Source of the DNA: a virus
Lineage: Duplodnaviria > Heunggongvirae > Uroviricota > Caudoviricetes
Strand: one strand, 5' to 3'
Virus record (IMG/VR): IMGVR_UViG_2681813429_000008
Span: 1-50,324 of that record
Length of the DNA stretch: 50,324 nt
The translations under genes and the position numbers were made by a program. Position 1 is the stretch's first letter. Each line of letters opens with the position of its first letter. The notes below the pieces were generated by a model, which was not told the DNA's origin, did not search any database, and saw only the letters and a list, made by a program, of their open reading frames with translations. Shown in pieces: positions 1,267 through 48,149 of this stretch.

Positions 1267-3441
1267 CTATCTAATCCTGAACATTACAATTGGAGCAGAG
1301 CCAGAAGATAAAGGGCCTGACCAATGGTATCTAATTCTGAAAGAAGACTCACTTGGAGTTCCGATAATTTCTATTGGACTTAAAGTTGCACCTTCTGCAG
1401 AACCAGCAGGTTGTCTAAACCCCAACACAGCAATCTGGTTTGGTGTTGGGGCATACAGAAAATTATGCTCAATATCAACCTCGTTAGATTCGCTACCTGT
1501 TGGGTTTGGCATATTCCACTCAATATAATCGTCAGTTGATTTCCCATTTATTGAGTTTCCAACTGTTGCCATAATCGTCCACGTACACGTCCTGTTAAGG
1601 GCTGCCATTCTATCACCTAAAAACCTATTATAACCATTTGCGCCTGAAGTGATTAATCTTATATTCTCTGATGCACATGTGCCAATGCTGTTAAATCCAG
1701 TGCAATCAGAAGAAAGCCCCTTCGCAGTTATATCTACGCTGTTCGCAAAACAAATTGTTGTTGAATTTACTGCATCGCGAATAAGAGCAGAACCCGAAAA
1801 CAAATTATCACACGAACCTCTTATATTATTACCACCGCCGGATAAGTAACATAAATTTCCTTTTATCCTCTTGGATGTAAAAGTAACATTGTTATTGTCA
1901 CCAGTAACAGAAAGAAGCGAGGCTTTAATAGGGGCATTGTCACTCTGCAACTGACCGATTTGGTTTATTGTAACTACATTGTTGTTGCCTGATATAGCTA
2001 TCTGATACCCATCATCATCAATTGAAGGTGAATATCTTTGTGCTTTTATATTGATGTTAAGTGTCCAGATTGTACCGTTATCCAGAAGCATGTCGCGGAG
2101 AGGAGAAATTGAATCGCCAGTGTAGTTATCTGGCATTCTTCCGCACGCCCTGGCTTCTGCGATGGCAACAACACCATGTGCCCCGTTGGTAAACCAGTAA
2201 CCACCTAAACTATTGTCAACACACACGTGCCTCGCATTGAATCGGTTAACACCCAGCGTCTTAAATCCATAGCCATAATACACAGCATATACATGGATGT
2301 AATTTATATCGACATGTCCTGTATAAGGAGACTGATTATCAAGAACAATTCCATGACATGGTTCTCCGGGATAAAGAAGGCTTTGTTGGCTTGTTGCTGT
2401 TAATCTTGCGCTGTAAGGAGGAAGTCCACACAGGCCAAAAACAATATAATCTAGGTTAATATCACCTGGCCCCCTGAACACAACCCCCTCTCTCCCTGAA
2501 ATTCTTCCCGTTATCCTCACTTCAGAGGCGTGTTCCTGATTATCATGAAATGATCCATACCCCTCTGAATAGAGAGCATGTTCTGCAACATTATTAATCT
2601 CAACGTCAATGTGGTACATGCTGCCGAATATTTTAATGGCAGTTCCATAATCATTGTTAACAGTGTCGCAAGTTCTCCATGAGTTTGTATCTCTTTGCAA
2701 GTCAAGATAATTACCATCAATGGTCATATCTTTTATGCTAAATCCATATGGCGCATCAGACAGATTTTCCACAACGCCAAAGCCATGTGTTTTAAATACA
2801 TCTGTATTACTACCTTTTTTAACATACAGAAATGTTGCTCTCTTTCCAGAGCCTTTATGATGAACGCCTGTATAAAGAATGATAGGAGAATCTATTAAAT
2901 AAACACCTGGAGGGTAAAATATTTCCCCGCCACCATTATTAAAAGCAGCTAATGCTGCGGCATTAATGGCATCAGAATCTGATGTCAATCCATCTGCTTT
3001 AGCTCCATAGTATTGAGGTGTTTTCCTGATTGCATCGTAAACCGTTGAAGCGCCGAAACCGATATATTTACTACCATCTGTACCGCCAATAAGTAATTTA
3101 AACTGATCCGGGTCGTACTTCAACACATTAGGAAAATTGAACTGCTGCGCCCCATATGCATCATAAACAGCCATAGAATGGCCTTGCACAGTTACGAACT
3201 TGGCAATCTGTCCGTTATATACCGGGTAACCAGCAGCGTTAATGATGATTGGTTGAGAAACAGGAACGTGAGAGCCGTCTTCGTTCTCCACATAAACCTG
3301 AATCTGGTTTTCTGGATTTACTGGGTCAGTGTCAATTTTACCGATATAAATTTTGCCATTAGCTACGGCTTTAAAAGAGCGGGCCATAGTAAAGAGTTGC
3401 GAAGGCATGCTCACTACAACATTGGCTGTAATGTCTGTCAT
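1267..3441 (-). CDS. Tailspike protein (P22-like N-terminal head-binding domain, divergent receptor-binding beta-helix domain)
   Basis: 724 aa. First ~110 aa ([11 protein letters not shown]...[13 protein letters not shown]...TVQGHSMA) closely resemble the P22 gp9 head-binding domain. The remainder is unrelated to the P22 endorhamnosidase domain. Confidence 0.85.
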
Positions 3442-3828: not shown

Positions 3829-3846
3829 AGGTGGGTCCTATTTATT
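3814..3846. terminator. Bidirectional intrinsic terminator (CCCACC-TGAA-GGTGGG)
   Basis: Perfect 6-bp stem with 4-nt loop, A-run upstream and T-run downstream. Lies between convergent mnt and the minus-strand lipoprotein gene; the mnt stop codon sits in the loop. Confidence 0.7.
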
Positions 3847-4264
3847 AGTCTTGCTTTGTTGATGGTATAAGAGATGCGTTTGCCTCTTTTGGCTTCAAGG
3901 TATACATCCCACCATTAAATGGATCTACAGCAAGCCAACCAATTAACCCACCAAACACAAGGTTCCCACCAATATACCAACCATTAGCATTGGCTTTGAT
4001 TGGCAGGGTAACTGGTTCGTACCCATCCTTCTCCATAGTGATCTGGTAGCTCTTTTTGCCAAAATAACTACCATCTGACTTGGCAAGAGTTACTCCTTGC
4101 GGGGTCTTACCTTGCGCAACAATCACGCCTGATTCGTCTTTTACCTTAAAGCTCGCACCGGAAGGATTGCTGTTCACTTGCACAAGCTGTGTTTCGTCAC
4201 CAACAATAGTTGCGCACCCAGATAACAATATAGCGCCAGCAACGACGCCGATAATCCTCTTCAT
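3845..4264 (-). CDS. Lipoprotein, PEGA-like domain (moron)
   Basis: 139 aa. Signal peptide with lipobox LLSGC. NPSGASFKV motif resembles a PEGA domain. Sits at the sieA/immI position of P22-like genomes. Confidence 0.7.
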   Translation of the reverse strand: MKRIIGVVAGAILLSGCATIVGDETQLVQVNSNPSGASFKVKDESGVIVAQGKTPQGVTLAKSDGSYFGKKSYQITMEKDGYEPVTLPIKANANGWYIGGNLVFGGLIGWLAVDPFNGGMYTLKPKEANASLIPSTKQD

Positions 4265-4398
4265 ATTACTTTCCGTTTTGTTAGAATCAGAAAGATCTTA
4301 ATAATAAAAAGTATTTTCGTGAAGATATTGTCGATTGAGTTAATAACTCATTTACACCCAACAGTGCCATGATGGCAAAGATAAGGAGAGTTATTCAT

Positions 4399-4884
4399 AT
4401 GAAAAAATCACTGTTAATTATCCCGCTTCTGCTGGCAGGGTGTGCAAAGGTTAGCGACTATCAGGCAAGTTGCGAACAACGCTATCCAAAGCTTAGCGAT
4501 ATGGCTAATTGCCTTGATGCCAGTGTGAAGAACGACTCACGCATGGCATCAGCACCAACACCTAAGCTGTATGTCCTTGCTGCAAAGATGCTCGGGCAAA
4601 GTGTCGATGAAGGCAAGATAAGTGACGCACAGGCAAGACTTGAGCTTCAGAATCTTTATGTTCAATTACAAAGCCAAGAACAAGCCCAACAAATAGCGCA
4701 AAGCCAAGCATTCCAGCAGGCTTTATTGAATTATCAGGCTGTAAACACAATGCAAGCGATCGAGCAAAAAGCGAGACAGCCTGTTATAACTCAACCCTAT
4801 CCAACACGCGTTGACACTTACACAAACTGCAATTCAGGGTTTGGAAATACAGTCACATGCAACAGTAGCAGTAACATCAGATAA
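4399..4884 (+). CDS. Lipoprotein, Gln-rich (moron)
   Basis: Start chosen at MKKSLLIIPLLLAGC (lipobox LLAGC) preceded by AAGGAGAG. Q-rich central region. Oriented opposite to the late operon. Confidence 0.7.
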   Translation: MKKSLLIIPLLLAGCAKVSDYQASCEQRYPKLSDMANCLDASVKNDSRMASAPTPKLYVLAAKMLGQSVDEGKISDAQARLELQNLYVQLQSQEQAQQIAQSQAFQQALLNYQAVNTMQAIEQKARQPVITQPYPTRVDTYTNCNSGFGNTVTCNSSSNIR

Positions 4885-4974: not shown

Positions 4975-6972
4975 CTATTCTGACAACGCATCAGACTTAG
5001 CCCCCTGCGTCAGAGCGTTAATTGCCTTTTGTGCCTGCTGCATGGCTTTCTCAAACGCTGTTGATCCGCGTGGGGTGTTTGCCATTCGGAGCATTGCATT
5101 TCTGAATGGTTCGCTCTCATAGGCGCGAGTAAGAAGTCCGTAGCTTACTGCTGCGCCAGTTGTCGCCGGATTCATTGCCGTCCCATACCCAATAATGAAC
5201 GGGATAGTTTGCTGCCCTGTGGGTGTTGTTACTGCCGCTTTTGCAGCCTGCTGCGTGGATTGCAGATAGTTTTTTAATCCTTTCAGATAAGCAGCGTCCT
5301 GCCCCTTAAATGTGATGCCAGTCTGGTTTTGCAGGATGTTAAGCTGCCGAAGGAACTGGTCAGGGGATCCGCCAGATTTCTCCATCGCCTTTCCAATGAT
5401 GCCATTGCGCATTTGCGCCCTGCCAACACGACCAACTGAGTTATACAGCGTCTTAATTTCCGATTTGTTCTTGCTGAATAGCATGTTGTTGACAACTTCC
5501 GGCGTCAGGTCGCCTTTCATGAGAACATTCTTCAGCCTGGTATTCTTTAGTTTCGCCGCTTCGTCAGCGTAGACGGCATTGGCCTGCTGATATTTACGGA
5601 GAGTATCGTTGCCAAGATTCTGACCAATGGCACCATTGATATCGTCAGTCATTGCCTTGTAAACGCGCTGAATGGCAGCATCGGAACGGTTTGGTAACAC
5701 TGGGCGCTCACCCTTCACGTCCATTCTGAACTGGCTGCGCAGGTCGCTTAATTGCTTCAAATCCAGATTTACCGGACCATCAGGACCAGCATTGCGAACA
5801 AGCTCATCACGATATGACTGAAGTTTTGAAATTGTCTCGTTATCAGCTACCTTACCAAGCTTCTGCAGATTAGATATCTCAGTATCAATCTGCTGAATTG
5901 CTCGCGCAGGCTGAATGTTTACTCCAGCCATAGCATTCTGAACCTGCTCCAGTCGATTACCGGCGGCACGACGAATTCCTGATGTTTTCGCTTTAAGGCT
6001 GTCAATAACAACCGCTGGATCATACTCACCAAATTTATCAGCAAATCTCTGCACCAACTGGCTTCTCGCTTCCTGTTGCGTTGCTCTCATTCCGCTTGTG
6101 CCAGCCAGAGGGATATTTTCTGCTGTAGTCTGCGCCATTTTTCCGACGCGGGAAGTTGGTTGTAACAGGTCTGTGGTGTGCAGAGGAACTCCTTCACGCT
6201 CTGCAAATCTGATAGCCTGCTGCGCTTCTGGCGCAATAGAACCACGAACGCCACGATAAGCAGCACCTAATCCACGTCCGGCAGCGTTAATAGCACCGCC
6301 AGCCAGCACACCAACACCTAAATCGGTGGCGAGTGCTTCCGCATCATCTTTCGCACTATTTGCAGCAAGTGATCCAACTGCGTTTTCTGCGAGAAGGCGA
6401 GTTGCCCCCTGAGCAATTCGACCAGCAAGTGTTGGTGCCTGTGTTGCCGCTCTCTCAACGCCAGCAGGAGTGAGGTAAGGCAATGCTTCAGCAAACACCC
6501 TGCCCTCTGTCGTTTGTGGAGTCAGCGCGCCTTGCTGAAGGCCAAAGTCATGCTCTAATCCCTGCGTTGTTACTCGTGGCGCTGGTTGATATGTACCATC
6601 GCCAATGCCGAGTTTACCGCCAGCCCATGCAGCCGCACTTGTTACAGCATCGGCAACTGATGCAGGTATGTTTGCCACGTTCACGCCAGCCTGCACCAGT
6701 CCGCGACCAGTCTCTTTTACTGCTTCGCCAAGATCAGACATAAGTCCACTTTGCTGTGGTTGTTGCTGTGCTACTGGTTGCTGTGTCTCCACTTGCTGCA
6801 CAGATGGCAATGGATAGGCAGCATAGAAAGCTTGCTTAGCCTGCTCTGCATTTTCTCCGGCTTGCGGGGCCACGACTTCATTGAAGTATTGCTCCTGAGC
6901 CTGCGCTTTTTGTTCTGGTGCTAACGCCTGGTACTGTGGAGAGGCGATAACATCTTTCCATGCTTTAGCCAT
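4975..6972 (-). CDS. Ejection (injection) protein, P22 gp16-like
   Basis: 665 aa. Position and size match P22 gene 16. Last gene of the gp7-gp20-gp16 ejection protein block. Confidence 0.7.
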   Translation of the reverse strand: MAKAWKDVIASPQYQALAPEQKAQAQEQYFNEVVAPQAGENAEQAKQAFYAAYPLPSVQQVETQQPVAQQQPQQSGLMSDLGEAVKETGRGLVQAGVNVANIPASVADAVTSAAAWAGGKLGIGDGTYQPAPRVTTQGLEHDFGLQQGALTPQTTEGRVFAEALPYLTPAGVERAATQAPTLAGRIAQGATRLLAENAVGSLAANSAKDDAEALATDLGVGVLAGGAINAAGRGLGAAYRGVRGSIAPEAQQAIRFAEREGVPLHTTDLLQPTSRVGKMAQTTAENIPLAGTSGMRATQQEARSQLVQRFADKFGEYDPAVVIDSLKAKTSGIRRAAGNRLEQVQNAMAGVNIQPARAIQQIDTEISNLQKLGKVADNETISKLQSYRDELVRNAGPDGPVNLDLKQLSDLRSQFRMDVKGERPVLPNRSDAAIQRVYKAMTDDINGAIGQNLGNDTLRKYQQANAVYADEAAKLKNTRLKNVLMKGDLTPEVVNNMLFSKNKSEIKTLYNSVGRVGRAQMRNGIIGKAMEKSGGSPDQFLRQLNILQNQTGITFKGQDAAYLKGLKNYLQSTQQAAKAAVTTPTGQQTIPFIIGYGTAMNPATTGAAVSYGLLTRAYESEPFRNAMLRMANTPRGSTAFEKAMQQAQKAINALTQGAKSDALSE

Positions 6973-21749: not shown

Positions 21750-21825
21750 TGGTGCTGGTTAACGGACTTGAACCGCTACCCATTCGCTTACAAGGCGACT
21801 GCTCTACCATTGGAGCTAAACCAGC
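21750..21825 (-). tRNA. tRNA with anticodon UGU (Thr-like)
   Basis: Hand-folded 76 nt cloverleaf: 7/7 bp acceptor stem (GCTGGTT/AACCAGC), D-arm GCTC/GAGC, anticodon loop CTTGTAA, T-arm with TTCAAGT loop, encoded 3' ACCA. Confidence 0.6.
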
Positions 21826-21830
21826 ATATT

Positions 21831-21905
21831 TGGCGGGACAGCGTGGACTCGAACCACGATAAGAAGGTTAACAGCCTTCCGTAATGACCTTTATACGACT
21901 GACCC
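21831..21905 (-). tRNA. tRNA-like sequence, anticodon GUU (Asn-like), degenerate
   Basis: 75 nt. Good anticodon arm (GAAGG-CTGTTAA-CCTTC) and T-arm (CGTGG-TTCGAGT-CCACG) and 3' GCCA, but acceptor stem has a T-T mismatch and D-stem only 3 bp. Confidence 0.4.
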
Positions 21906-21968: not shown

Positions 21969-22487
21969 CTAAATGGCTAATTGCATGTCAAGGCTTTTAA
22001 CAGCAACATGCTTAACTTTCTCAACACGTTTACGCATTTTGAAAGCATTTTGCATTGGTTGGTACAAAACAAATAACGACGCTTTCAGGATGTCGTCAAT
22101 TTCGTTTCTACAGGTTGCCAGTGAAGGCTTTCTCCATCCCTCGCCACCACGTCCACACATCTTGCGTGGCTTTGCAGTCGCGTGATAGTAGGATGCAATT
22201 GCTCGCTTAGATGAACCATGAGCGTAGTAGCTGAGGAGGATTCCAAAGGCTTTCTTGTCAATGCACATGACGGAATCGACGACCTGAGAAATCAACATTC
22301 CATCATCATCATTACACATTGGCCTTGTCATAACTCTTCCCGGCTCTACGCTCTCCATGAACTTCGCTATTACGCTGCTCATGCGCTTTTCCAGACGACC
22401 TGAATAAACCCATGCGCCCCACAGTTCAAGCCAGCCATTCAGCCACTCGTGCTGCTCTTTGGTGAGGTTTAGTTCTCTTATGCTCAT
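21969..22487 (-). CDS. Q: Late gene antiterminator Q
   Basis: 172 aa, upstream of the lysis cassette, last gene of the nin region. Resembles Q proteins of the phage 82/21 group rather than lambda Q. Confidence 0.7.
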   Translation of the reverse strand: MSIRELNLTKEQHEWLNGWLELWGAWVYSGRLEKRMSSVIAKFMESVEPGRVMTRPMCNDDDGMLISQVVDSVMCIDKKAFGILLSYYAHGSSKRAIASYYHATAKPRKMCGRGGEGWRKPSLATCRNEIDDILKASLFVLYQPMQNAFKMRKRVEKVKHVAVKSLDMQLAI

Positions 22488-29278: not shown

Positions 29279-29572
29279 TCAGAATTCCATCTGGATTTGT
29301 TCAGAACGCTCGGTTGCCGCCGGGCGTTTTTTATTGGTGAGAATCGAAGCAACTTGTCGTGCCAATCGAGCCATGTCGTCGTCAACGACACCCCATTCAA
29401 GAACAGCAAGCAGCATTGAGAACTTTGGAATCCAGTCCCTCTTCCACCTGCTGATCTGCGACTTATCAACTCCCACAGCTTCCGCTGTCTTCTCAGTTCC
29501 AAGCATTGCGATTTTGTTAAGCAACGCACTCTCGATTCTTAGAGCCTCGTTGCGTTTGTTTGCACGAACCAT
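29279..29572 (-). CDS. cII: Transcriptional activator cII
   Basis: 97 aa, near-identical to lambda CII as recalled ([51 protein letters not shown]...). Confidence 0.95.
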
Positions 29573-29680: not shown

Positions 29681-29881
29681 CTATTTGTTTTTCTTGTTGC
29701 TTGGGAAAGGACGAACTTCCTCTCCAATCACACTGCCATCAGGCTTTACCGTAACCATAATGTTACGGCCTGCCAGAATGGCCTTGCTGATAGCGCACTG
29801 GATTACACCAAAGTCACTGGCTGCTTTAGCCTGTCCATGGATTTTGGCGTAATCGGCAAGTGTCATTCGAATCATATGCAC
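29681..29881 (-). CDS. cro: Cro repressor
   Basis: Resembles lambda Cro ([53 protein letters not shown]). True start probably 2-5 codons inside the ORF. Confidence 0.9.
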
Positions 29882-29906
29882 TCTCCGTTATTAACCATGA
29901 ATAAAG

Positions 29907-29970
29907 AATACTACAGGTATTCAAAGCAATCAATACTCAGGGTATTTTTAGTTTAAGTACCTTAGCTATT
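29907..29970. promoter_or_regulatory. OR operator region: three 15-bp sites AATAC-N5-GTATT (PR/PRM)
   Basis: Sites at ~29907-29921 (AATACTACAGGTATT), ~29932-29946 (AATACTCAGGGTATT) and a degenerate third ~29956-29970, spaced 24-25 bp, between divergent cro and cI. Confidence 0.65.
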
Positions 29971-29981
29971 AGAATTAAGCT

Positions 29982-30698
29982 ATGGAAAATAAAAAATCAC
30001 TGACGACAGAACAGCTCGAAGACGCTAAGCGGCTTAAGGCTTTGTATGAGTCAAAAAAGAAAGAATTGGGAATAACCCAATACTCAATCGCTGATGAACT
30101 GGGTATCACCCAAGGAGCGGTAGGGCATTATCTTAATGGCAGAAACGCGCTAAACGTTGAGGTCGCATCTGGTTTTGCACGTTTGTTGCAAGTCTCAATT
30201 GCTGATTTTAGCCAGTCAATTGCTGCCAAGGTTGCAGAACAGGCAGAAAGCCTTAAGAGCGATGCCAACGTAAGGTATGCAGGGGAATACAGAGCAGGAA
30301 AGAGGTATCCGGTGTTAAGCAGTATCCAGGCTGGTTCGTGGTGTGAAGCATGCGAACCATACACCATTAAAGACATAGATGTTTGGCTTGAGTCTGACGC
30401 GCATATTCAAGGTAATGCGTTCTGGCTTAAAGTGGAAGGTGATTCAATGACGGCACCGGTTGGGTTAAGTATTCCAGAGGGAACATTCGTTCTTTTCGAT
30501 ACCGGAAGGGAGGCGATCAACGGCAGCTTGGTCATAGCAAAACTTTCTGACTCTAACGAAGCAACATTCAAGAAGCTGATAATCGACGGCGGAAATAAAT
30601 ACCTCAAGGGACTTAATCCTGCATGGCCTCTCGTGCCAATCAATGGAAACTGCAAGATTATAGGCGTTGCAATTGAGACAAAACTCAGACTGGTTTGA
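29982..30698 (+). CDS. CI-type repressor (HTH plus S24 LexA-like peptidase domain)
   Basis: 238 aa. N-terminal HTH (LGITQYSIADELGITQGAVGHYLNG), Ala-Gly cleavage site, catalytic Ser (GDSM) and Lys in the C-terminal domain. Confidence 0.9.
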   Translation: MENKKSLTTEQLEDAKRLKALYESKKKELGITQYSIADELGITQGAVGHYLNGRNALNVEVASGFARLLQVSIADFSQSIAAKVAEQAESLKSDANVRYAGEYRAGKRYPVLSSIQAGSWCEACEPYTIKDIDVWLESDAHIQGNAFWLKVEGDSMTAPVGLSIPEGTFVLFDTGREAINGSLVIAKLSDSNEATFKKLIIDGGNKYLKGLNPAWPLVPINGNCKIIGVAIETKLRLV

Positions 30699-30716
30699 TC
30701 ACGCAAGGGGGCGCTT

Positions 30717-31085
30717 ATGGTTGGAACCGCTATAGCAAGCTTTTTGGGGATGTTGGCAATCTCAACAATTTACGGCTTAGCGCATGCTTTTATTGCGAAA
30801 TCTCTATCAGAAAAAATAAGCCAGGCTTGGGCGCATAGATCAGCTCGTTTCATGATTCTAGTGATCATAGCAATACAAGGGATATCTGCATTTATCCTCT
30901 ATGGATCAAGCTTATACCTATTGTATCAAGGCGCGACATTTACGCCTTACACCAGTGATTACGGAACTCTATACGATGGTAGTGAAGACATCTCTATGGC
31001 TTGGATCGTCTTTGGTTTATCTATGGCCGTGTCTGTTGTAGCAGACATCATTAAGGTAATTCTCGTCTTAACCTTCGCTGACTAA
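30717..31085 (+). CDS. Small multi-pass membrane protein downstream of cI (RexB/SieB-like position)
   Basis: 122 aa with 3-4 predicted hydrophobic helices, 19 nt after the cI stop, so probably co-transcribed from PRM. Confidence 0.6.
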   Translation: MVGTAIASFLGMLAISTIYGLAHAFIAKSLSEKISQAWAHRSARFMILVIIAIQGISAFILYGSSLYLLYQGATFTPYTSDYGTLYDGSEDISMAWIVFGLSMAVSVVADIIKVILVLTFAD

Positions 31086-31172
31086 CCCATAATCCCGGCA
31101 GCAATAGCTATCGGGATCCACTTCACATATCCCGCATAAAAAGCACTGAACAAGCAGACACCGAAAAAAATA

Positions 31173-31257
31173 AATATCCTTTGTATTCATTTGTTTATCA
31201 TTATTTCATCAAAAATAAATACCTTGGGTATTTACACAATAAAATACCTACAGTATT
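31173..31257. promoter_or_regulatory. OL operator region: three AATAC-N5-GTATT-type sites (PL)
   Basis: Sites at ~31173-31187 (AATATCCTTTGTATT), ~31218-31232 (AATACCTTGGGTATT) and ~31243-31257 (AATACCTACAGTATT). Same consensus as OR. Confidence 0.6.
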
Positions 31258-31304
31258 CTTTAGCCATCAGCAGGACGCTGGAAGTCAAACGGAAAAGATT
31301 GGCA

Positions 31305-31345: not shown

Positions 31346-31660
31346 AACCAAAGAGTAGTTGGCTTTGGGGTGACGTGAAGTGCAGCTGCACGACGGCAAC
31401 CGGAAGATAAGCACCCGGCGCGTCACCGCCAAAGTCAATTCCATAGGCGTTATGCAGCCGCCACCATATTCAAGAAAGCTGCACAAGAGGTAGGAGGATT
31501 TATGTGAATACTTACATTCAATTGAGAGATTAATTAAATAGAACTGATCGAGCAGAGTCCATAAAGGCTCATAAATGCTCTTCCATCCCCGTCTAATTGG
31601 CGGGGAAGGAAACCACTTTGTAATAAAAAAAATTCCAAAGTTGTTTCATCGGAGGTCAAC

Positions 31661-31968: not shown

Positions 31969-32439
31969 ATGACAAAATCATGGAGCGTACCTTTTCCCGA
32001 ATCAGAAACTGAACATGATGGAATGCCTGTTTTCTGGAGATTCCAGGCGACAGTTGAAGAAGATGGAATCAAAATATTCGCACTTCAATATATAGCTTTT
32101 CATCAGACAGAGCATTATGCATGGTTGGTTCCTGCGCATTGGATTGTTAATTTTAAACCAGCACCAAATCAGTGGTTACAGGAATGGAAACAAAGGAGAA
32201 ATAGATATGCAATTAAGAAAGTAGCAAAAAATGCAGAAAGATCTTTTGCATTCCCAACGAAGAAACTTGCCATTGAGAGTTTATTGCGCCGGAAGAAATA
32301 CCATTTAATGAGAATCAAACAAGATTTGGCTGTTGTATCAACTCTTGTTGATGGGATGAAGAATATTGATACATCAACACCAGATATTGAATATAACTTT
32401 GGACACAACCAAGAAACAGAAAATTGGGTATTCTACTAG
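31969..32439 (+). CDS. Hypothetical early protein
   Basis: 156 aa AT-rich ORF with RBS, immediately after N. Confidence 0.55.
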   Translation: MTKSWSVPFPESETEHDGMPVFWRFQATVEEDGIKIFALQYIAFHQTEHYAWLVPAHWIVNFKPAPNQWLQEWKQRRNRYAIKKVAKNAERSFAFPTKKLAIESLLRRKKYHLMRIKQDLAVVSTLVDGMKNIDTSTPDIEYNFGHNQETENWVFY

Positions 32440-39790: not shown

Positions 39791-39950
39791 TGAACACTTC
39801 TCACTAAGTTCAATTAATTCCATAACTCACTGTTTTAACTGATATCATCTCCTTATACTCGTCCAGCAAAGTACCATTATTTCTAATGGAATCTATACAT
39901 CTTTGCGTATAACATTGTGTATAACTGAGTTCGATCTTTTTTCTATACAC

Positions 39951-41126
39951 ATGCTGCTATCTGACATCCAAATAAAAAGAGCAAAACCGAAGGACAAACC
40001 CTATACGCTTAACGATGGTATGGGGCTATCACTCCTGATCGACACAGCGGGCAGTAAAGGCTGGCGTTTTCGCTATCGCTTTGCAGGTAAGCCTAAGATG
40101 ATTTCCTTTGGCGTATATGGCGATGTGTCGTTGGCACAGGCACGTACCAAACGTGATGAAGCGCGTTCGATGTTAGCCAACGGGATAAACCCAAGTGAAG
40201 CCAGAAAAGCAGATAAGATTGCTTTGCAGTTCGCGCATGAGAACAGCTTTGAGTCTGTGGCCAGAGAATGGCACTCATCGAAAAAAGCCACCTGGTCAGA
40301 GGGTTATGCAAAAGAGGTTCTCAATTGTATGGAAAAGGATATTTTTCCTTTTATCGGCCAGCGCCCAATTGAGCAGATTGAACCATTAGAACTGCTAACC
40401 GTCCTGCAAAAAATAGAGAAAAGAGGTGCGCTAGAGCAAACCAGTAAGATCCGCCGCCGCTGTGGTGAAGTGCTTCGTTATGCTGTTGCCACTGGTAGAG
40501 CAAAGTATAATTTTGCACCCGATTTAGCTATCGCACTCAACAAACCTAAAACCCAACACTTCCCGTTCCTGACTGAAAGCGAGTTGCCCGAGTTCGTTAA
40601 TGCTCTGGATAACTATCAGGGCAGTTTAGTTACCAAATACGCCACGCAGCTGTTGATGCTAACAGGCGTGCGAACAATTGAACTACGTGCAGCGGAATGG
40701 GCTGAGTTTGATTTAGATAATGCCTTATGGGAGATCCCCAAAGAACGGATGAAGAAACGCCGCCCCCATCTGGTTCCGTTATCAACTCAGGCGATCAATA
40801 TCCTGAAAAAGCTGCAAGAAATAACAGGGAATTACAGCCTCGTTTTCCCTGGCCGGAATGACGTCAGTAAACCAATGAGCGAAGCCAGCATCAACAAAGT
40901 GATAAAACTACTGGGTTATCACGGTCGGTTAACGGGTCACGGTTTCAGGCATACCATGAGCACCATCTTGCATGAGCATGGGTTTGAAAGTGCCTGGATT
41001 GAAATGCAGCTTGCGCATGTTGATAAGAACTCTATTCGAGGTACTTACAATCATGCGCAATATATTAAAGATCGACAAGTAATGATGGAATGGTACGCTA
41101 GCTTATTAAATACGACCTGCTATTAA
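39951..41126 (+). CDS. int: Tyrosine integrase, P4 family (second copy)
   Basis: Start chosen at ATG MLLSDIQIKRAKPKDKPYTLNDG. Shares the RRCGEV.RYA..TGRAKYN.APDLA and HGFRHT motifs with the first integrase. Confidence 0.9.
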   Translation: MLLSDIQIKRAKPKDKPYTLNDGMGLSLLIDTAGSKGWRFRYRFAGKPKMISFGVYGDVSLAQARTKRDEARSMLANGINPSEARKADKIALQFAHENSFESVAREWHSSKKATWSEGYAKEVLNCMEKDIFPFIGQRPIEQIEPLELLTVLQKIEKRGALEQTSKIRRRCGEVLRYAVATGRAKYNFAPDLAIALNKPKTQHFPFLTESELPEFVNALDNYQGSLVTKYATQLLMLTGVRTIELRAAEWAEFDLDNALWEIPKERMKKRRPHLVPLSTQAINILKKLQEITGNYSLVFPGRNDVSKPMSEASINKVIKLLGYHGRLTGHGFRHTMSTILHEHGFESAWIEMQLAHVDKNSIRGTYNHAQYIKDRQVMMEWYASLLNTTCY

Positions 41127-47717: not shown

Positions 47718-48149
47718 AATGGCAACCTCCTTCAGATAGCGGGTAACGCTACCACCGGAGTTCCTACGCTCATGGGTGGTAGCCCAGACGGGGGTAGGAA
47801 TACCGGCTCTGAAGGATACCGGCCAGCCCGAAAGCTGCCCCGCCTGGACTACCATAATTCTGATGATGTGGCGTAAAAAATAAAAAAATACAATCAGCCA
47901 CCACACCATAAATTTTAGGTGAGTCAAAGCTGCGACACAAAAAAACACGCCTAGCGCGTGTAGTATCGCCTTCAGATAACACGGGTTCCTACGCCCGGCT
48001 GCCGATTTTGCGGCAACCTTTAAACTATATCCCGCGCATTCCTGGTGAGGCAAGAAATTTATAACCGAAAACTGATCATTGCCTGGATTAATTAACGCTG
48101 GCATGCTTAAGCCTCTGCTTAAAAATAGTTCTTCATTTTTCCTGATGCT

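What the first reader, a model, noticed from the sequence alone, without database searches (positions are those of the whole stretch)
30717..31085. Small polytopic membrane protein co-transcribed with cI
A 122 aa protein with several hydrophobic helices starts 19 nt after the repressor stop. This position mirrors lambda rexAB and P22 sieB, which mediate exclusion or abortive infection in the lysogen.
Basis: inference. Interest (0 to 1): 0.45.

Follow-up and report, generated by a model that had tools for sequence, protein, structure and literature searches.

The report
Orphan membrane gene hkaS after cI
The ORF is real: it is hkaS, a small three-helix inner-membrane protein gene of unknown function. 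It always sits directly behind one family of phage repressor genes, where lambda keeps rexAB. Nothing yet shows that it excludes other phages.

Summary
Observation confirmed. ORF 30717-31085 (+, 122 aa) starts 18 nt after the stop of a cI-type repressor (29982-30698) and has its own Shine-Dalgarno. It is hkaS of coliphage HK620, annotated "unknown" (PHROG 6534, unknown).

It is a real gene:
- It is intact and 122 aa in all 81 further loci.
- dN/dS is 0.15-0.2.
- The Shine-Dalgarno is kept although the spacer diverges.

It is predicted to have three TM helices (AF2 pLDDT 91.6), N-out/C-in, with a basic loop 1 and an acidic loop 2 in all lineages.

The family is tiny: one full-length representative among 1.84 billion proteins, Enterobacterales prophages only. 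It has no Pfam, NCBIfam, PADLOC, PDB or informative fold match, and no similarity to RexB, SieA or SieB.

hkaS follows the 3' half of cI even where the DNA-binding domain is swapped. The cro-cI-hkaS cassette is one cluster while its flanks are mosaic, so there is no conserved partner gene.

The position mirrors lambda rexAB but not P22 sieB. I conclude it is a lysogeny-expressed moron trapped in the immunity cassette. A single-protein exclusion or defence role at the inner membrane is the most likely function but is unproven. This is an ordinary kind of element with a functionally uncharacterised family. Interest is modest.

The parts
29906..29971 (.). OR1-OR2-OR3 operators (17-bp AAATACC-N3-GGTATTT-like sites at 29906-29922, 29931-29947, 29955-29971). 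The divergent pR/pRM region lies between cro and cI. A TAGAAT -10-like hexamer at about 29969-29974 would start pRM transcripts at or near the cI ATG (inference).
   Evidence: Pattern scan. The positions agree with the OR1-3 annotation of HK620.
29982..30698 (+). cI repressor, 238 aa (HTH_3 N-terminal domain, Peptidase_S24 C-terminal domain). It is 99.6% identical to HK620 cI.
30699..30716 (+). 18-nt cI-hkaS spacer with Shine-Dalgarno AAGGGGG (30705-30711). There is no terminator or promoter match. An SD (AAGGA or AGGGA) is kept in all lineages although the spacer sequence differs.
30717..31085 (+). hkaS, 122-aa predicted inner-membrane protein. TM1 is aa 2-29 (30720-30803). The basic cytoplasmic loop with a short helix is aa 30-40. 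TM2 is aa 41-74 (30837-30938). The acidic periplasmic loop with a small beta-hairpin is aa 75-88. TM3 plus the conserved C-terminal tail K-x-I-L-V-L-T-F-A-D is aa 89-122 (30981-31082).
   Evidence: phrog_6534; hkaS of HK620.
31092..31117 (+). Stable hairpin (UCCCGGC-AGC...GCU-AUCGGGA) 7 nt after the hkaS stop codon. Each diverged lineage has a different hairpin at this place. It is a candidate 3' end or stabiliser of the cI-hkaS transcript. It has no good U-tract in the window, so intrinsic termination is uncertain.
31172..31258 (.). Left operator region: operator-like sites at 31172-31188, 31217-31233 and 31242-31258. The pL-like promoter (TTTACA-17-TATTCT, 31231-31259) fires away from hkaS towards N. 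This marks the end of the immunity cassette.
   Evidence: HK620 annotation.
29681..29881 (-). cro (lambda Cro family), the divergent partner of cI. It is part of the same conserved cassette.

Best explanation
hkaS is a genuine accessory ('moron') gene that lies inside the immunity cassette of HK620-type lambdoid and P22-like prophages.

Expression (inferred): it is transcribed with cI as the second cistron of the maintenance (pRM) and establishment (pRE) transcripts. It is translated from its own Shine-Dalgarno.

Location and topology (predicted): the product inserts into the inner membrane as a compact three-helix protein. The N-terminus is in the periplasm, a basic loop is in the cytoplasm, an acidic aromatic-rich hairpin loop is in the periplasm, and the C-terminus is in the cytoplasm.

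Inheritance (shown): because it sits between cI and OL, it is inherited with the 3' half of cI wherever the cassette moves.

Function (inferred by analogy, not shown): it works alone, with no phage-encoded partner, as a prophage-expressed defence or exclusion factor at the inner membrane. Most probably it interferes with genome entry of superinfecting phages, as the unrelated small inner-membrane proteins P22 SieA, HK97 gp15 and T4 Imm do. Less probably it collapses membrane function on infection.

Shown here: the gene is real and under purifying selection, the linkage to cI is strict, no partner is conserved, and the sequence is an orphan. Inferred: co-transcription, membrane topology and the exclusion function.
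For: Gene reality:
- Conserved 122-aa length.
- dN/dS 0.15-0.2, against 0.03 for cI.
- 81/81 intact copies.
- SD conserved in a diverging spacer.

Operon:
- 17-20 nt gap behind cI in 80/80 loci that include upstream DNA, and in E. coli, Salmonella, Hafnia-type and Buttiauxella lineages.
- No promoter or terminator match in the gap or in the cI 3' end.
- A lineage-specific hairpin lies after the stop, followed by OL.
- The HK620 record places the end of the cI transcript after hkaS.

Membrane protein:
- Three hydrophobic helices.
- Loop 1 has net charge +3 to +5 and loop 2 has -1 to -4 in all five lineages.

Acts without a phage partner:
- The cro-cI-hkaS cassette is one cluster in 65 loci, while flanks fall into 8-31 clusters.

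Slot precedent:
- Lambda has rexAB in the same slot.
- bstA of BTP1 is transcribed from the cI promoter, and the cI-N interval is described as a common moron site (PMC7067206).

Functional precedent (small inner-membrane proteins expressed from prophages that block DNA entry):
- SieA: three TM helices, acts alone (PMC10883804).
- HK97 gp15 (PMC3594210).

Other:
- This P22-like prophage has no SieA at the canonical place.
- HkaS diverges about four times faster than cI at the protein level. This fits a protein that faces changing targets, but it also fits weak constraint.
Against: - There is no experimental result of any kind for this family.
- There is no match to any PADLOC defence model and no similarity to RexB, SieA or SieB.
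- SieA and gp15 are encoded next to the virion genes whose relatives they exclude. hkaS instead travels with the repressor through P22-like podoviruses, lambda-like siphoviruses and Stx2c phages, so no target class can be inferred.
- dN/dS is well below 1 and variation is spread over all segments rather than focused on the periplasmic loop. There is therefore no arms-race signature.
- Strict linkage to cI is explained by physical position alone.
Confidence: 0.4

Rival explanations
1. Lysogenic-conversion or host-physiology factor. HkaS is a small membrane protein that binds a host inner-membrane protein (transporter, sensor kinase, protease or secretion component). It changes host fitness (stress, nutrient uptake, colicin or antibiotic tolerance) rather than defending against phages.
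For: It has the same expression logic as lambda lom and bor and other morons (PMC7067206; PMC3594210). Conserved intramembrane polar residues (Q54, S106, D110, K113) and the invariant C-terminal tail suggest a specific protein contact. No phage partner is conserved. The cassette is spread through commensal and pathogenic E. coli, in 146 of 5426 complete genomes.
Against: No homologue exists among host chromosomal proteins, unlike gp15/YebO. No family or fold hint points to any host pathway.
Confidence: 0.25
2. Lysogeny-control accessory. HkaS tunes the switch itself. For example, it could modulate FtsH or Clp proteolysis of CII, O or antitoxins, as reported for RexB alone (my own knowledge, not checked in a paper here). 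It could also affect repressor level or RecA-dependent cleavage through the cI C-terminal domain with which it is always inherited.
For: hkaS follows the cI C-terminal (S24) half even when the DNA-binding domain, cro and the operators are replaced. In Buttiauxella the cI NTD is 23% identical, the CTD 88% and HkaS 55%. pRE transcripts would make HkaS at the time of the lysis-lysogeny decision (inference). The conserved cytoplasmic loop KISQAWAHRxARF forms a short helix.
Against: Adjacency alone explains linkage to the CTD. Close cI relatives do without it (Serratia OS31 and Cronobacter ENT39118 have no gene there; Erwinia Eho49 and 434 have unrelated genes). It is therefore not needed for this repressor type to work. 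There is no similarity to cIII, HflKC, YccA or RexB.
Confidence: 0.15
3. Rex-like abortive infection. HkaS is a RexB-type channel or effector that depolarises the membrane when a sensor detects an infecting phage.
For: It has the same slot and orientation as rexAB. It is a small polytopic membrane protein with conserved charged residues inside TM3 (D110, K113).
Against: There is no RexA-like gene next to it or anywhere conserved with it. It has three, not four, hydrophobic segments. Bit scores against RexB are negative and there is no Pfam RexB hit. A constitutively made effector would need a trigger, and none is visible.
Confidence: 0.1
4. Not functional: a hitch-hiking ORF or remnant kept only because it lies between cI and its operators.
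For: Its inheritance is fully explained by position. The family is narrow.
Against: dN/dS is 0.15-0.2 with saturated dS. The length is invariant at 122 aa. 81/81 copies are intact. The SD is conserved. The C-terminal residues are invariant despite synonymous changes.
Confidence: 0.03

Closest known systems
hkaS of coliphage HK620 (AAK28867.1; PHROG 6534; RefSeq WP_000233129.1 'hypothetical protein')
   Same: It is the same gene. It is 96.7% identical in protein and has the same place between cI and OL. It is also found in HK140, HK630, mEpX2, HF4s, HZ41, 611R6, phi296/phi367 and two Stx2c phages.
   Different: Only a few substitutions. The window's prophage has different replication genes and an extra ~205 bp in the N leader. 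No function is assigned in any record.
Lambda rexA-rexB (Rex abortive-infection/exclusion system)
   Same: It occupies the slot between cI and tIMM/OL, is co-oriented with cI, and is expressed from the repressor promoters in the lysogen. RexB is a small polytopic inner-membrane protein (PMC7067206; PMC11436027).
   Different: There is no sequence similarity. HkaS has 3 hydrophobic segments against RexB's 4, and 122 aa against 144. There is no RexA-like sensor gene. It is one gene instead of two.
P22 SieA (inner-membrane blocker of DNA injection)
   Same: It is a small protein with three predicted TM helices. It is made from the prophage and acts without other phage proteins (PMC10883804).
   Different: It is unrelated in sequence and lacks the FxRYPxEAxxFNK motif. 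sieA lies between genes 16 and 9 of P22-like prophages, not next to the repressor. The long cytoplasmic loop of SieA is absent.
HK97 gp15, T4 Imm, lactococcal Sie2009 and TP-J34 Ltp (membrane-anchored superinfection-exclusion proteins)
   Same: They are small envelope proteins expressed in the lysogen or early in infection that stop genome entry (PMC3594210, PMC10883804, PMC11436027). From my own knowledge, the lactococcal and streptococcal genes also sit next to the repressor in the lysogeny module.
   Different: They are unrelated families with one or two TM helices or a lipid anchor. gp15 derives from the host YebO family, whereas HkaS has no host homologue.
BstA of Salmonella prophage BTP1
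   Same: The gene lies directly downstream of cI and is transcribed from the cI promoter in all conditions. It is a moron in the cI-N interval (PMC7067206).
   Different: From my own knowledge, BstA is a large soluble DNA-binding abortive-infection protein, not a membrane protein. There is no similarity.

Membership tests
Lambda RexB | Sequence membership in the RexB family | tested here: not met
   No Pfam hit at E<=0.1 other than two sub-threshold spurious TM matches. The HkaS profile scores -1.9 bits against lambda RexB.
Lambda RexB | Four transmembrane segments | tested here: not met
   HkaS has three helices. RexB shows four hydrophobic blocks with the same hydropathy script.
Lambda RexB | Encoded with a RexA sensor partner | tested here: not met
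   hkaS follows cI directly and OL follows hkaS. No conserved neighbour exists outside cro-cI-hkaS in 65 loci.
Lambda RexB | Located between cI and OL and co-oriented with cI | tested here: met
Lambda RexB | Membrane depolarisation or abortive infection on superinfection | not testable with these tools
   Needs infection assays.
P22 SieA | Sequence similarity or the cytoplasmic motif FxRYPxEAxxFNK | tested here: not met
   The motif is absent. The best blastp match to SieA is 6 residues at E=29, and the profile score is -3.5 bits. The motif is taken from PMC10883804.
P22 SieA | Gene between homologues of P22 genes 16 and 9 in a P22-like prophage | tested here: not met
   hkaS is in the immunity region. 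The 16-to-9 interval of this prophage (3845-4884) holds two lipoprotein genes instead.
P22 SieA | Small inner-membrane protein with three TM helices | tested here: met
   By prediction only.
P22 SieA | Blocks DNA injection | not testable with these tools
   Needs K+ efflux and DNA-entry assays.
P22 SieB | Sequence similarity to SieB | tested here: not met
   -0.9 bits. No Pfam hit.
P22 SieB | Position beyond N (gene 24), on the opposite strand, with its own promoter | tested here: not met
   P22 map. hkaS lies on the cI side of OL, on the cI strand.
Class I holins (lambda S type) | Three TM helices, N-out/C-in | tested here: met
   Positive-inside analysis. By prediction only.
Class I holins (lambda S type) | Highly charged C-terminal cytoplasmic tail, and a gene in the lysis cassette next to the endolysin | tested here: not met
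   The C-terminus is hydrophobic (ILVLTFAD). The gene is in the immunity cassette. No holin Pfam family matched.
Lysogeny-expressed moron of the cI-N interval | Lies between the repressor gene and N and is dispensable for the repressor type (present or absent among relatives) | tested here: met
   cI relatives at 65-77% CTD identity have no gene or an unrelated gene there.
Lysogeny-expressed moron of the cI-N interval | Transcribed in the lysogen from the repressor promoter | not testable with these tools
   Inferred from the 18-nt gap, the absence of a promoter or terminator match, and the downstream hairpin. No transcriptome was available.
Known anti-phage defence systems (PADLOC-DB 2.0) | Match to any defence-protein model | tested here: not met
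   0 families at E<=1.

The most novel reading that the evidence does not exclude
HkaS founds a new family of single-protein, repressor-linked inner-membrane effectors. Either it is a stand-alone anti-phage protein whose target is independent of virion type, since it travels with the repressor through podo-, sipho- and Stx-type phages. Or it is functionally coupled to the cI C-terminal domain it is always inherited with, for example as a membrane factor that modulates repressor cleavage or stability and hence induction, including induction of Stx2c prophages.
Probability: 0.12. Interest if true: 0.6.

Novelty: new member of a known kind. Interest (0 to 1): 0.3.

Why it matters
The interval after the repressor gene is where temperate phages keep genes that act in the lysogen (rexAB, bstA). 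HkaS is an uncharacterised orphan occupant of that slot. It is present in about 2.7% of complete E. coli genomes (146 of 5426), including O145:H28 outbreak strains and Stx2c-converting phages, and in model phages that are easy to work with (HK620, mEpX2, HK140). A one-gene deletion and expression experiment could reveal a new exclusion or defence protein, or a modulator of prophage induction. If it turns out to be only a fitness moron, the result is ordinary.

Tried and rejected
- Pfam, NCBIfam, PADLOC and PHROG scans gave only PHROG 6534 ('unknown') and two sub-threshold TM artefacts, Cation_ATPase_C and TssN.
- The word-indexed search of 5.8 billion proteins found 11 clusters, all close relatives.
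- The exhaustive profile search of 1.84 billion representatives found one full-length hit, one 44-aa fragment, and a 5949-aa repeat protein that matches only the loop segment. I treated the last as low-complexity noise.
- The PDB sequence profile search found nothing.
- Direct profile and BLAST comparison with RexA, RexB, SieA, SieB, P22 gp17, HK620 hkaP and the 434 post-cI protein was negative throughout.
- Literature searches for hkaS, HK620, mEpX2, 'repressor protection protein' and 'downstream of cI' found nothing on this gene.
- I rejected the antisense 40-aa Cys-rich ORF 31068-31190 as a gene, because the DNA there is not conserved between lineages.
- I rejected an internal promoter for hkaS within the cI 3' end. 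The best match is 8/12.
- I found no arms-race signature focused on the periplasmic loop. Variation is spread evenly.

Full report
**1. Observation**

The preceding ORF, 29982..30698, is a cI-type repressor (HTH_3 plus Peptidase_S24; PHROG 4 'transcriptional repressor'). It is flanked by a lambda-type cro (29681..29881, -) and cII (29279..29572, -).

The cI stop ends at 30698, so 18 nt separate the genes. A Shine-Dalgarno AAGGGGG lies 5 nt before the ATG.

Kyte-Doolittle hydropathy shows three hydrophobic segments. AlphaFold2, run on a six-sequence alignment, gives a confident model (mean pLDDT 91.6, pTM 0.78) with these elements:
- helices at aa 2-29, 41-74 and 89-121;
- a short helix (31-38) in the first loop;
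- a small beta-hairpin (78-86) in the second loop.

**2. Identity**

Megablast against phage records shows that the region is the HK620-type immunity region. In the HK620 record the gene is hkaS, product 'unknown'. It lies between cI and the features annotated tIMM, OL3-OL1 and pL. In HK140 it is a 'hypothetical protein'. It is PHROG 6534, 'unknown function', and 'hypothetical protein' in RefSeq E. coli genomes.

The window itself is a P22-like prophage (portal, coat, ejection proteins, tailspike) that carries this cassette.

**3. Is it a real gene?**

Homologues were recovered from E. coli, a Hafnia-type lineage (82% identity), Salmonella (60%), a metagenome (54%) and Buttiauxella (55%). All are exactly 122 aa.
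- Nei-Gojobori dN/dS is 0.15 (window vs Hafnia-type) to 0.2 where dS is not saturated. For cI over the same comparisons it is 0.03.
- In 81 further loci (80 IMG/VR contigs plus Buttiauxella) the ORF is intact in 81/81, with 25 protein alleles.
- The spacer sequence differs between lineages, but each keeps an SD (AAGGGGG, AAGGA or AGGGA).
- The last ten residues are nearly invariant although their codons carry synonymous differences.

A chance ORF is excluded.

**4. Operon structure**

In every locus with upstream DNA (80/80), hkaS starts 17-20 nt after a cI gene on the same strand.
- The consensus scan finds no promoter or terminator in the gap. A relaxed scan of the cI 3' end gives nothing better than 8/12.
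- Seven nucleotides after the stop codon there is a stable hairpin (31092-31117). The diverged lineages have different hairpins at the same place.
- Conserved operator-like sites (31172-31188, 31217-31233, 31242-31258) and the pL-like promoter follow.
- The OR sites are at 29906-29971.

The unit OR - cI - hkaS - hairpin - OL therefore looks like lambda's OR - cI - rexA - rexB - tIMM - OL. Co-transcription is a strong inference, but I had no transcript data.

A TAGAAT hexamer just upstream of the cI ATG suggests a leaderless cI message, as in lambda. In that case hkaS would be the cistron with the canonical ribosome-binding site. This is inference.

**5. Topology**

Loop 1 carries net +3 to +5 and loop 2 carries -1 to -4 in all five lineages. 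The N-terminus is uncharged. By the positive-inside rule, the N-terminus and the acidic, Tyr/Gly-rich hairpin loop face the periplasm. The basic loop (KISQAWAHRxARF) and the C-terminus face the cytoplasm.

Invariant polar residues sit inside the helices: Q54, S106, D110 and K113. The most conserved stretch is the C-terminal K-x-I-L-V-L-T-F-A-D, with 88% mean pairwise identity.

**6. How isolated the family is**

- The word-indexed search of 5.8 billion proteins found 11 clusters, all close relatives.
- The exhaustive profile search of 1.84 billion representatives found one full-length representative.
- One species-representative genome outside the known hosts carries it, a Buttiauxella.
- There is no Pfam, NCBIfam, PADLOC or PDB-sequence match.
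- Fold searches return only generic helical bundles.
- Unlike HK97 gp15, which derives from host YebO (PMC3594210), HkaS has no host homologue.

**7. Linkage**

In the phage collection, the same 16 records carry a cI of at least 99% identity and HkaS.

| Locus | cI NTD identity | cI CTD identity | Gene after cI |
|---|---|---|---|
| Salmonella | 86% | 88% | hkaS (60% identical) |
| Buttiauxella | 23% (unrelated DNA-binding domain, different cro) | 88% | hkaS (55% identical) |
| Serratia phage OS31 | 85% | 74% | none |
| Cronobacter ENT39118 | 49% | 77% | none |
| Erwinia Eho49 | 69% | 68% | unrelated soluble protein |
| Phage 434 | 34% | 72% | unrelated secreted-looking protein |
| Lambda | 53% | 41% | rexAB |

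hkaS is therefore tied to the 3' half of cI, not to immunity specificity, and relatives of this repressor do without it. The simplest reading is physical trapping between cI and OL.

Across 65 loci with 2.5 kb on both sides, the cro-cI-hkaS block forms one cluster, whereas the flanks form 8 to 31 clusters. There is no conserved partner gene.

The cassette occurs in P22-like podoviruses (HK620, this window), lambda-like siphoviruses (HK140, HK630, mEpX2) and Stx2c phages. It is present in 146 of 5426 complete E. coli genomes.

**8. Comparison with known systems**

- Position: it matches rexAB and bstA of BTP1, which is transcribed from the cI promoter. The cI-N interval is described as a common moron site (PMC7067206). 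It does not match P22 sieB, which lies beyond gene 24 on the other strand with its own promoter. P22 has nothing between c2 and OL.
- Sequence: the HkaS profile gives negative bit scores against RexB, RexA, SieA, SieB, P22 gp17, HK620 hkaP and the 434 protein.
- RexB: it has four hydrophobic blocks and needs RexA. HkaS has three and has no such neighbour.
- SieA: it is a ~163-aa, three-TM inner-membrane protein that alone blocks DNA injection. It is defined by its place between genes 16 and 9 and by the motif FxRYPxEAxxFNK (PMC10883804). HkaS has neither. It resembles SieA only in being a small three-TM protein that could act alone.
- Local context: the window's own 16-to-9 interval holds two lipoprotein genes and no sieA.
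- Holins: HkaS shares the three-TM N-out/C-in layout of class I holins. It lacks the charged C-terminal tail and the lysis-cassette context.

**9. Mechanism**

What is shown:
- a selected, repressor-linked gene;
- a predicted three-helix inner-membrane product;
- no phage partner.

What is inferred:
- expression with cI in the lysogen and during establishment;
- a function exerted in the lysogen.

I rank the candidate functions as follows.
1. A stand-alone inner-membrane exclusion or defence role is most likely (0.4). The reasons are the slot, the precedents of SieA, gp15 and Imm, and the faster protein divergence (dN about four times that of cI).
2. A host-physiology moron (0.25).
3. A switch-tuning accessory linked to proteolysis or to the cI C-terminal domain (0.15).
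4. A Rex-like depolarising effector (0.1).

None of these can be separated by sequence analysis. The points against the defence reading are:
- no defence-model hit;
- no arms-race signature;
- linkage to the repressor rather than to a virion module.

**10. Verdict**

The rexAB analogy is apt as to position, and the sieB analogy is not. The exclusion function remains a reasonable but untested guess.

The gene has been annotated since the HK620 genome record. No function is given in any record examined, and none was found in the searchable literature. It is a new, uncharacterised member of a well-known kind of element: lysogeny-expressed morons next to the repressor. Interest is modest. The experiments that would settle the question are simple.

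Noticed in passing
window 3845-4264 (-) and 4369-4884 (+): Two predicted lipoprotein genes (lipoboxes LLSGC and LLAGC; 139 and 171 aa). They lie between the tailspike gene (1267-3441) and the gene-16-like ejection-protein gene (4975-6972), the slot where P22 carries sieA-mnt-arc-ant. No SieA is present. They are candidate envelope morons or exclusion lipoproteins.
   Followed up: partly
window 31441-31645: About 205 bp are inserted in the N leader between nutL and N. The insert is absent from HK620 and present in diverged form in HK140. It contains an SD followed by a start-stop minigene (AGGAGGATTTATGTGA) and a GC-rich hairpin (CCCCGTC-TAATT-GGCGGGG). The HK140 counterpart of the hairpin keeps its stem through changes on both sides. 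It might affect N expression.
   Followed up: partly
window 31172-31188 versus about 31195-31211: The site conserved across all lineages, which resembles the operator consensus (AAATATCCTTTGTATTC), lies where the HK620 record annotates tIMM. The record's OL3 position is not conserved between lineages. The left operator and terminator annotation of HK620 may need revision.
   Followed up: partly
window 31068-31190 (-): A 40-aa Cys-rich antisense ORF overlaps the hkaS 3' end. The underlying DNA is not conserved in the Salmonella, Hafnia-type or metagenome lineages, so it is probably not a gene.
   Followed up: yes
window 47772-47859 (-) and 47940-48017 (-): Rfam matches above gathering score to C4 antisense RNA (81 bits) and isrK Hfq-binding sRNA (69 bits). 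This pairing suggests a P1/P7-type antirepressor-control locus. It lies beyond the integrase-like ORF at 39903-41126, so it may belong to a second element.
   Followed up: no
window 21753-21825 and 21834-21905 (-): Two tRNA genes lie near an ORF (21969-22487) whose position matches the antiterminator Q gene of a related prophage.
   Followed up: no
L013 2409-2813 (phage 434, OL657227.1): The gene after 434 cI encodes a 134-aa protein with a signal-peptide-like N-terminus. It is labelled 'repressor protection protein'. No paper explaining the name was found. It is another uncharacterised occupant of the post-cI slot.
   Followed up: partly
L019 1833-2869 (Buttiauxella contig CBCPKK010000004.1): A hybrid repressor: the N-terminal DNA-binding domain and cro are unrelated to the window's, but the C-terminal domain is 88% identical and is followed by hkaS. 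This is a clear case of recombination within cI between its two domains.
   Followed up: yes
window 31969-32439 (+): A 156-aa ORF lies directly after N (PHROG 1636, unknown function). It has low GC (0.37, GC3 0.30) compared with its neighbours and is probably another moron.
   Followed up: no
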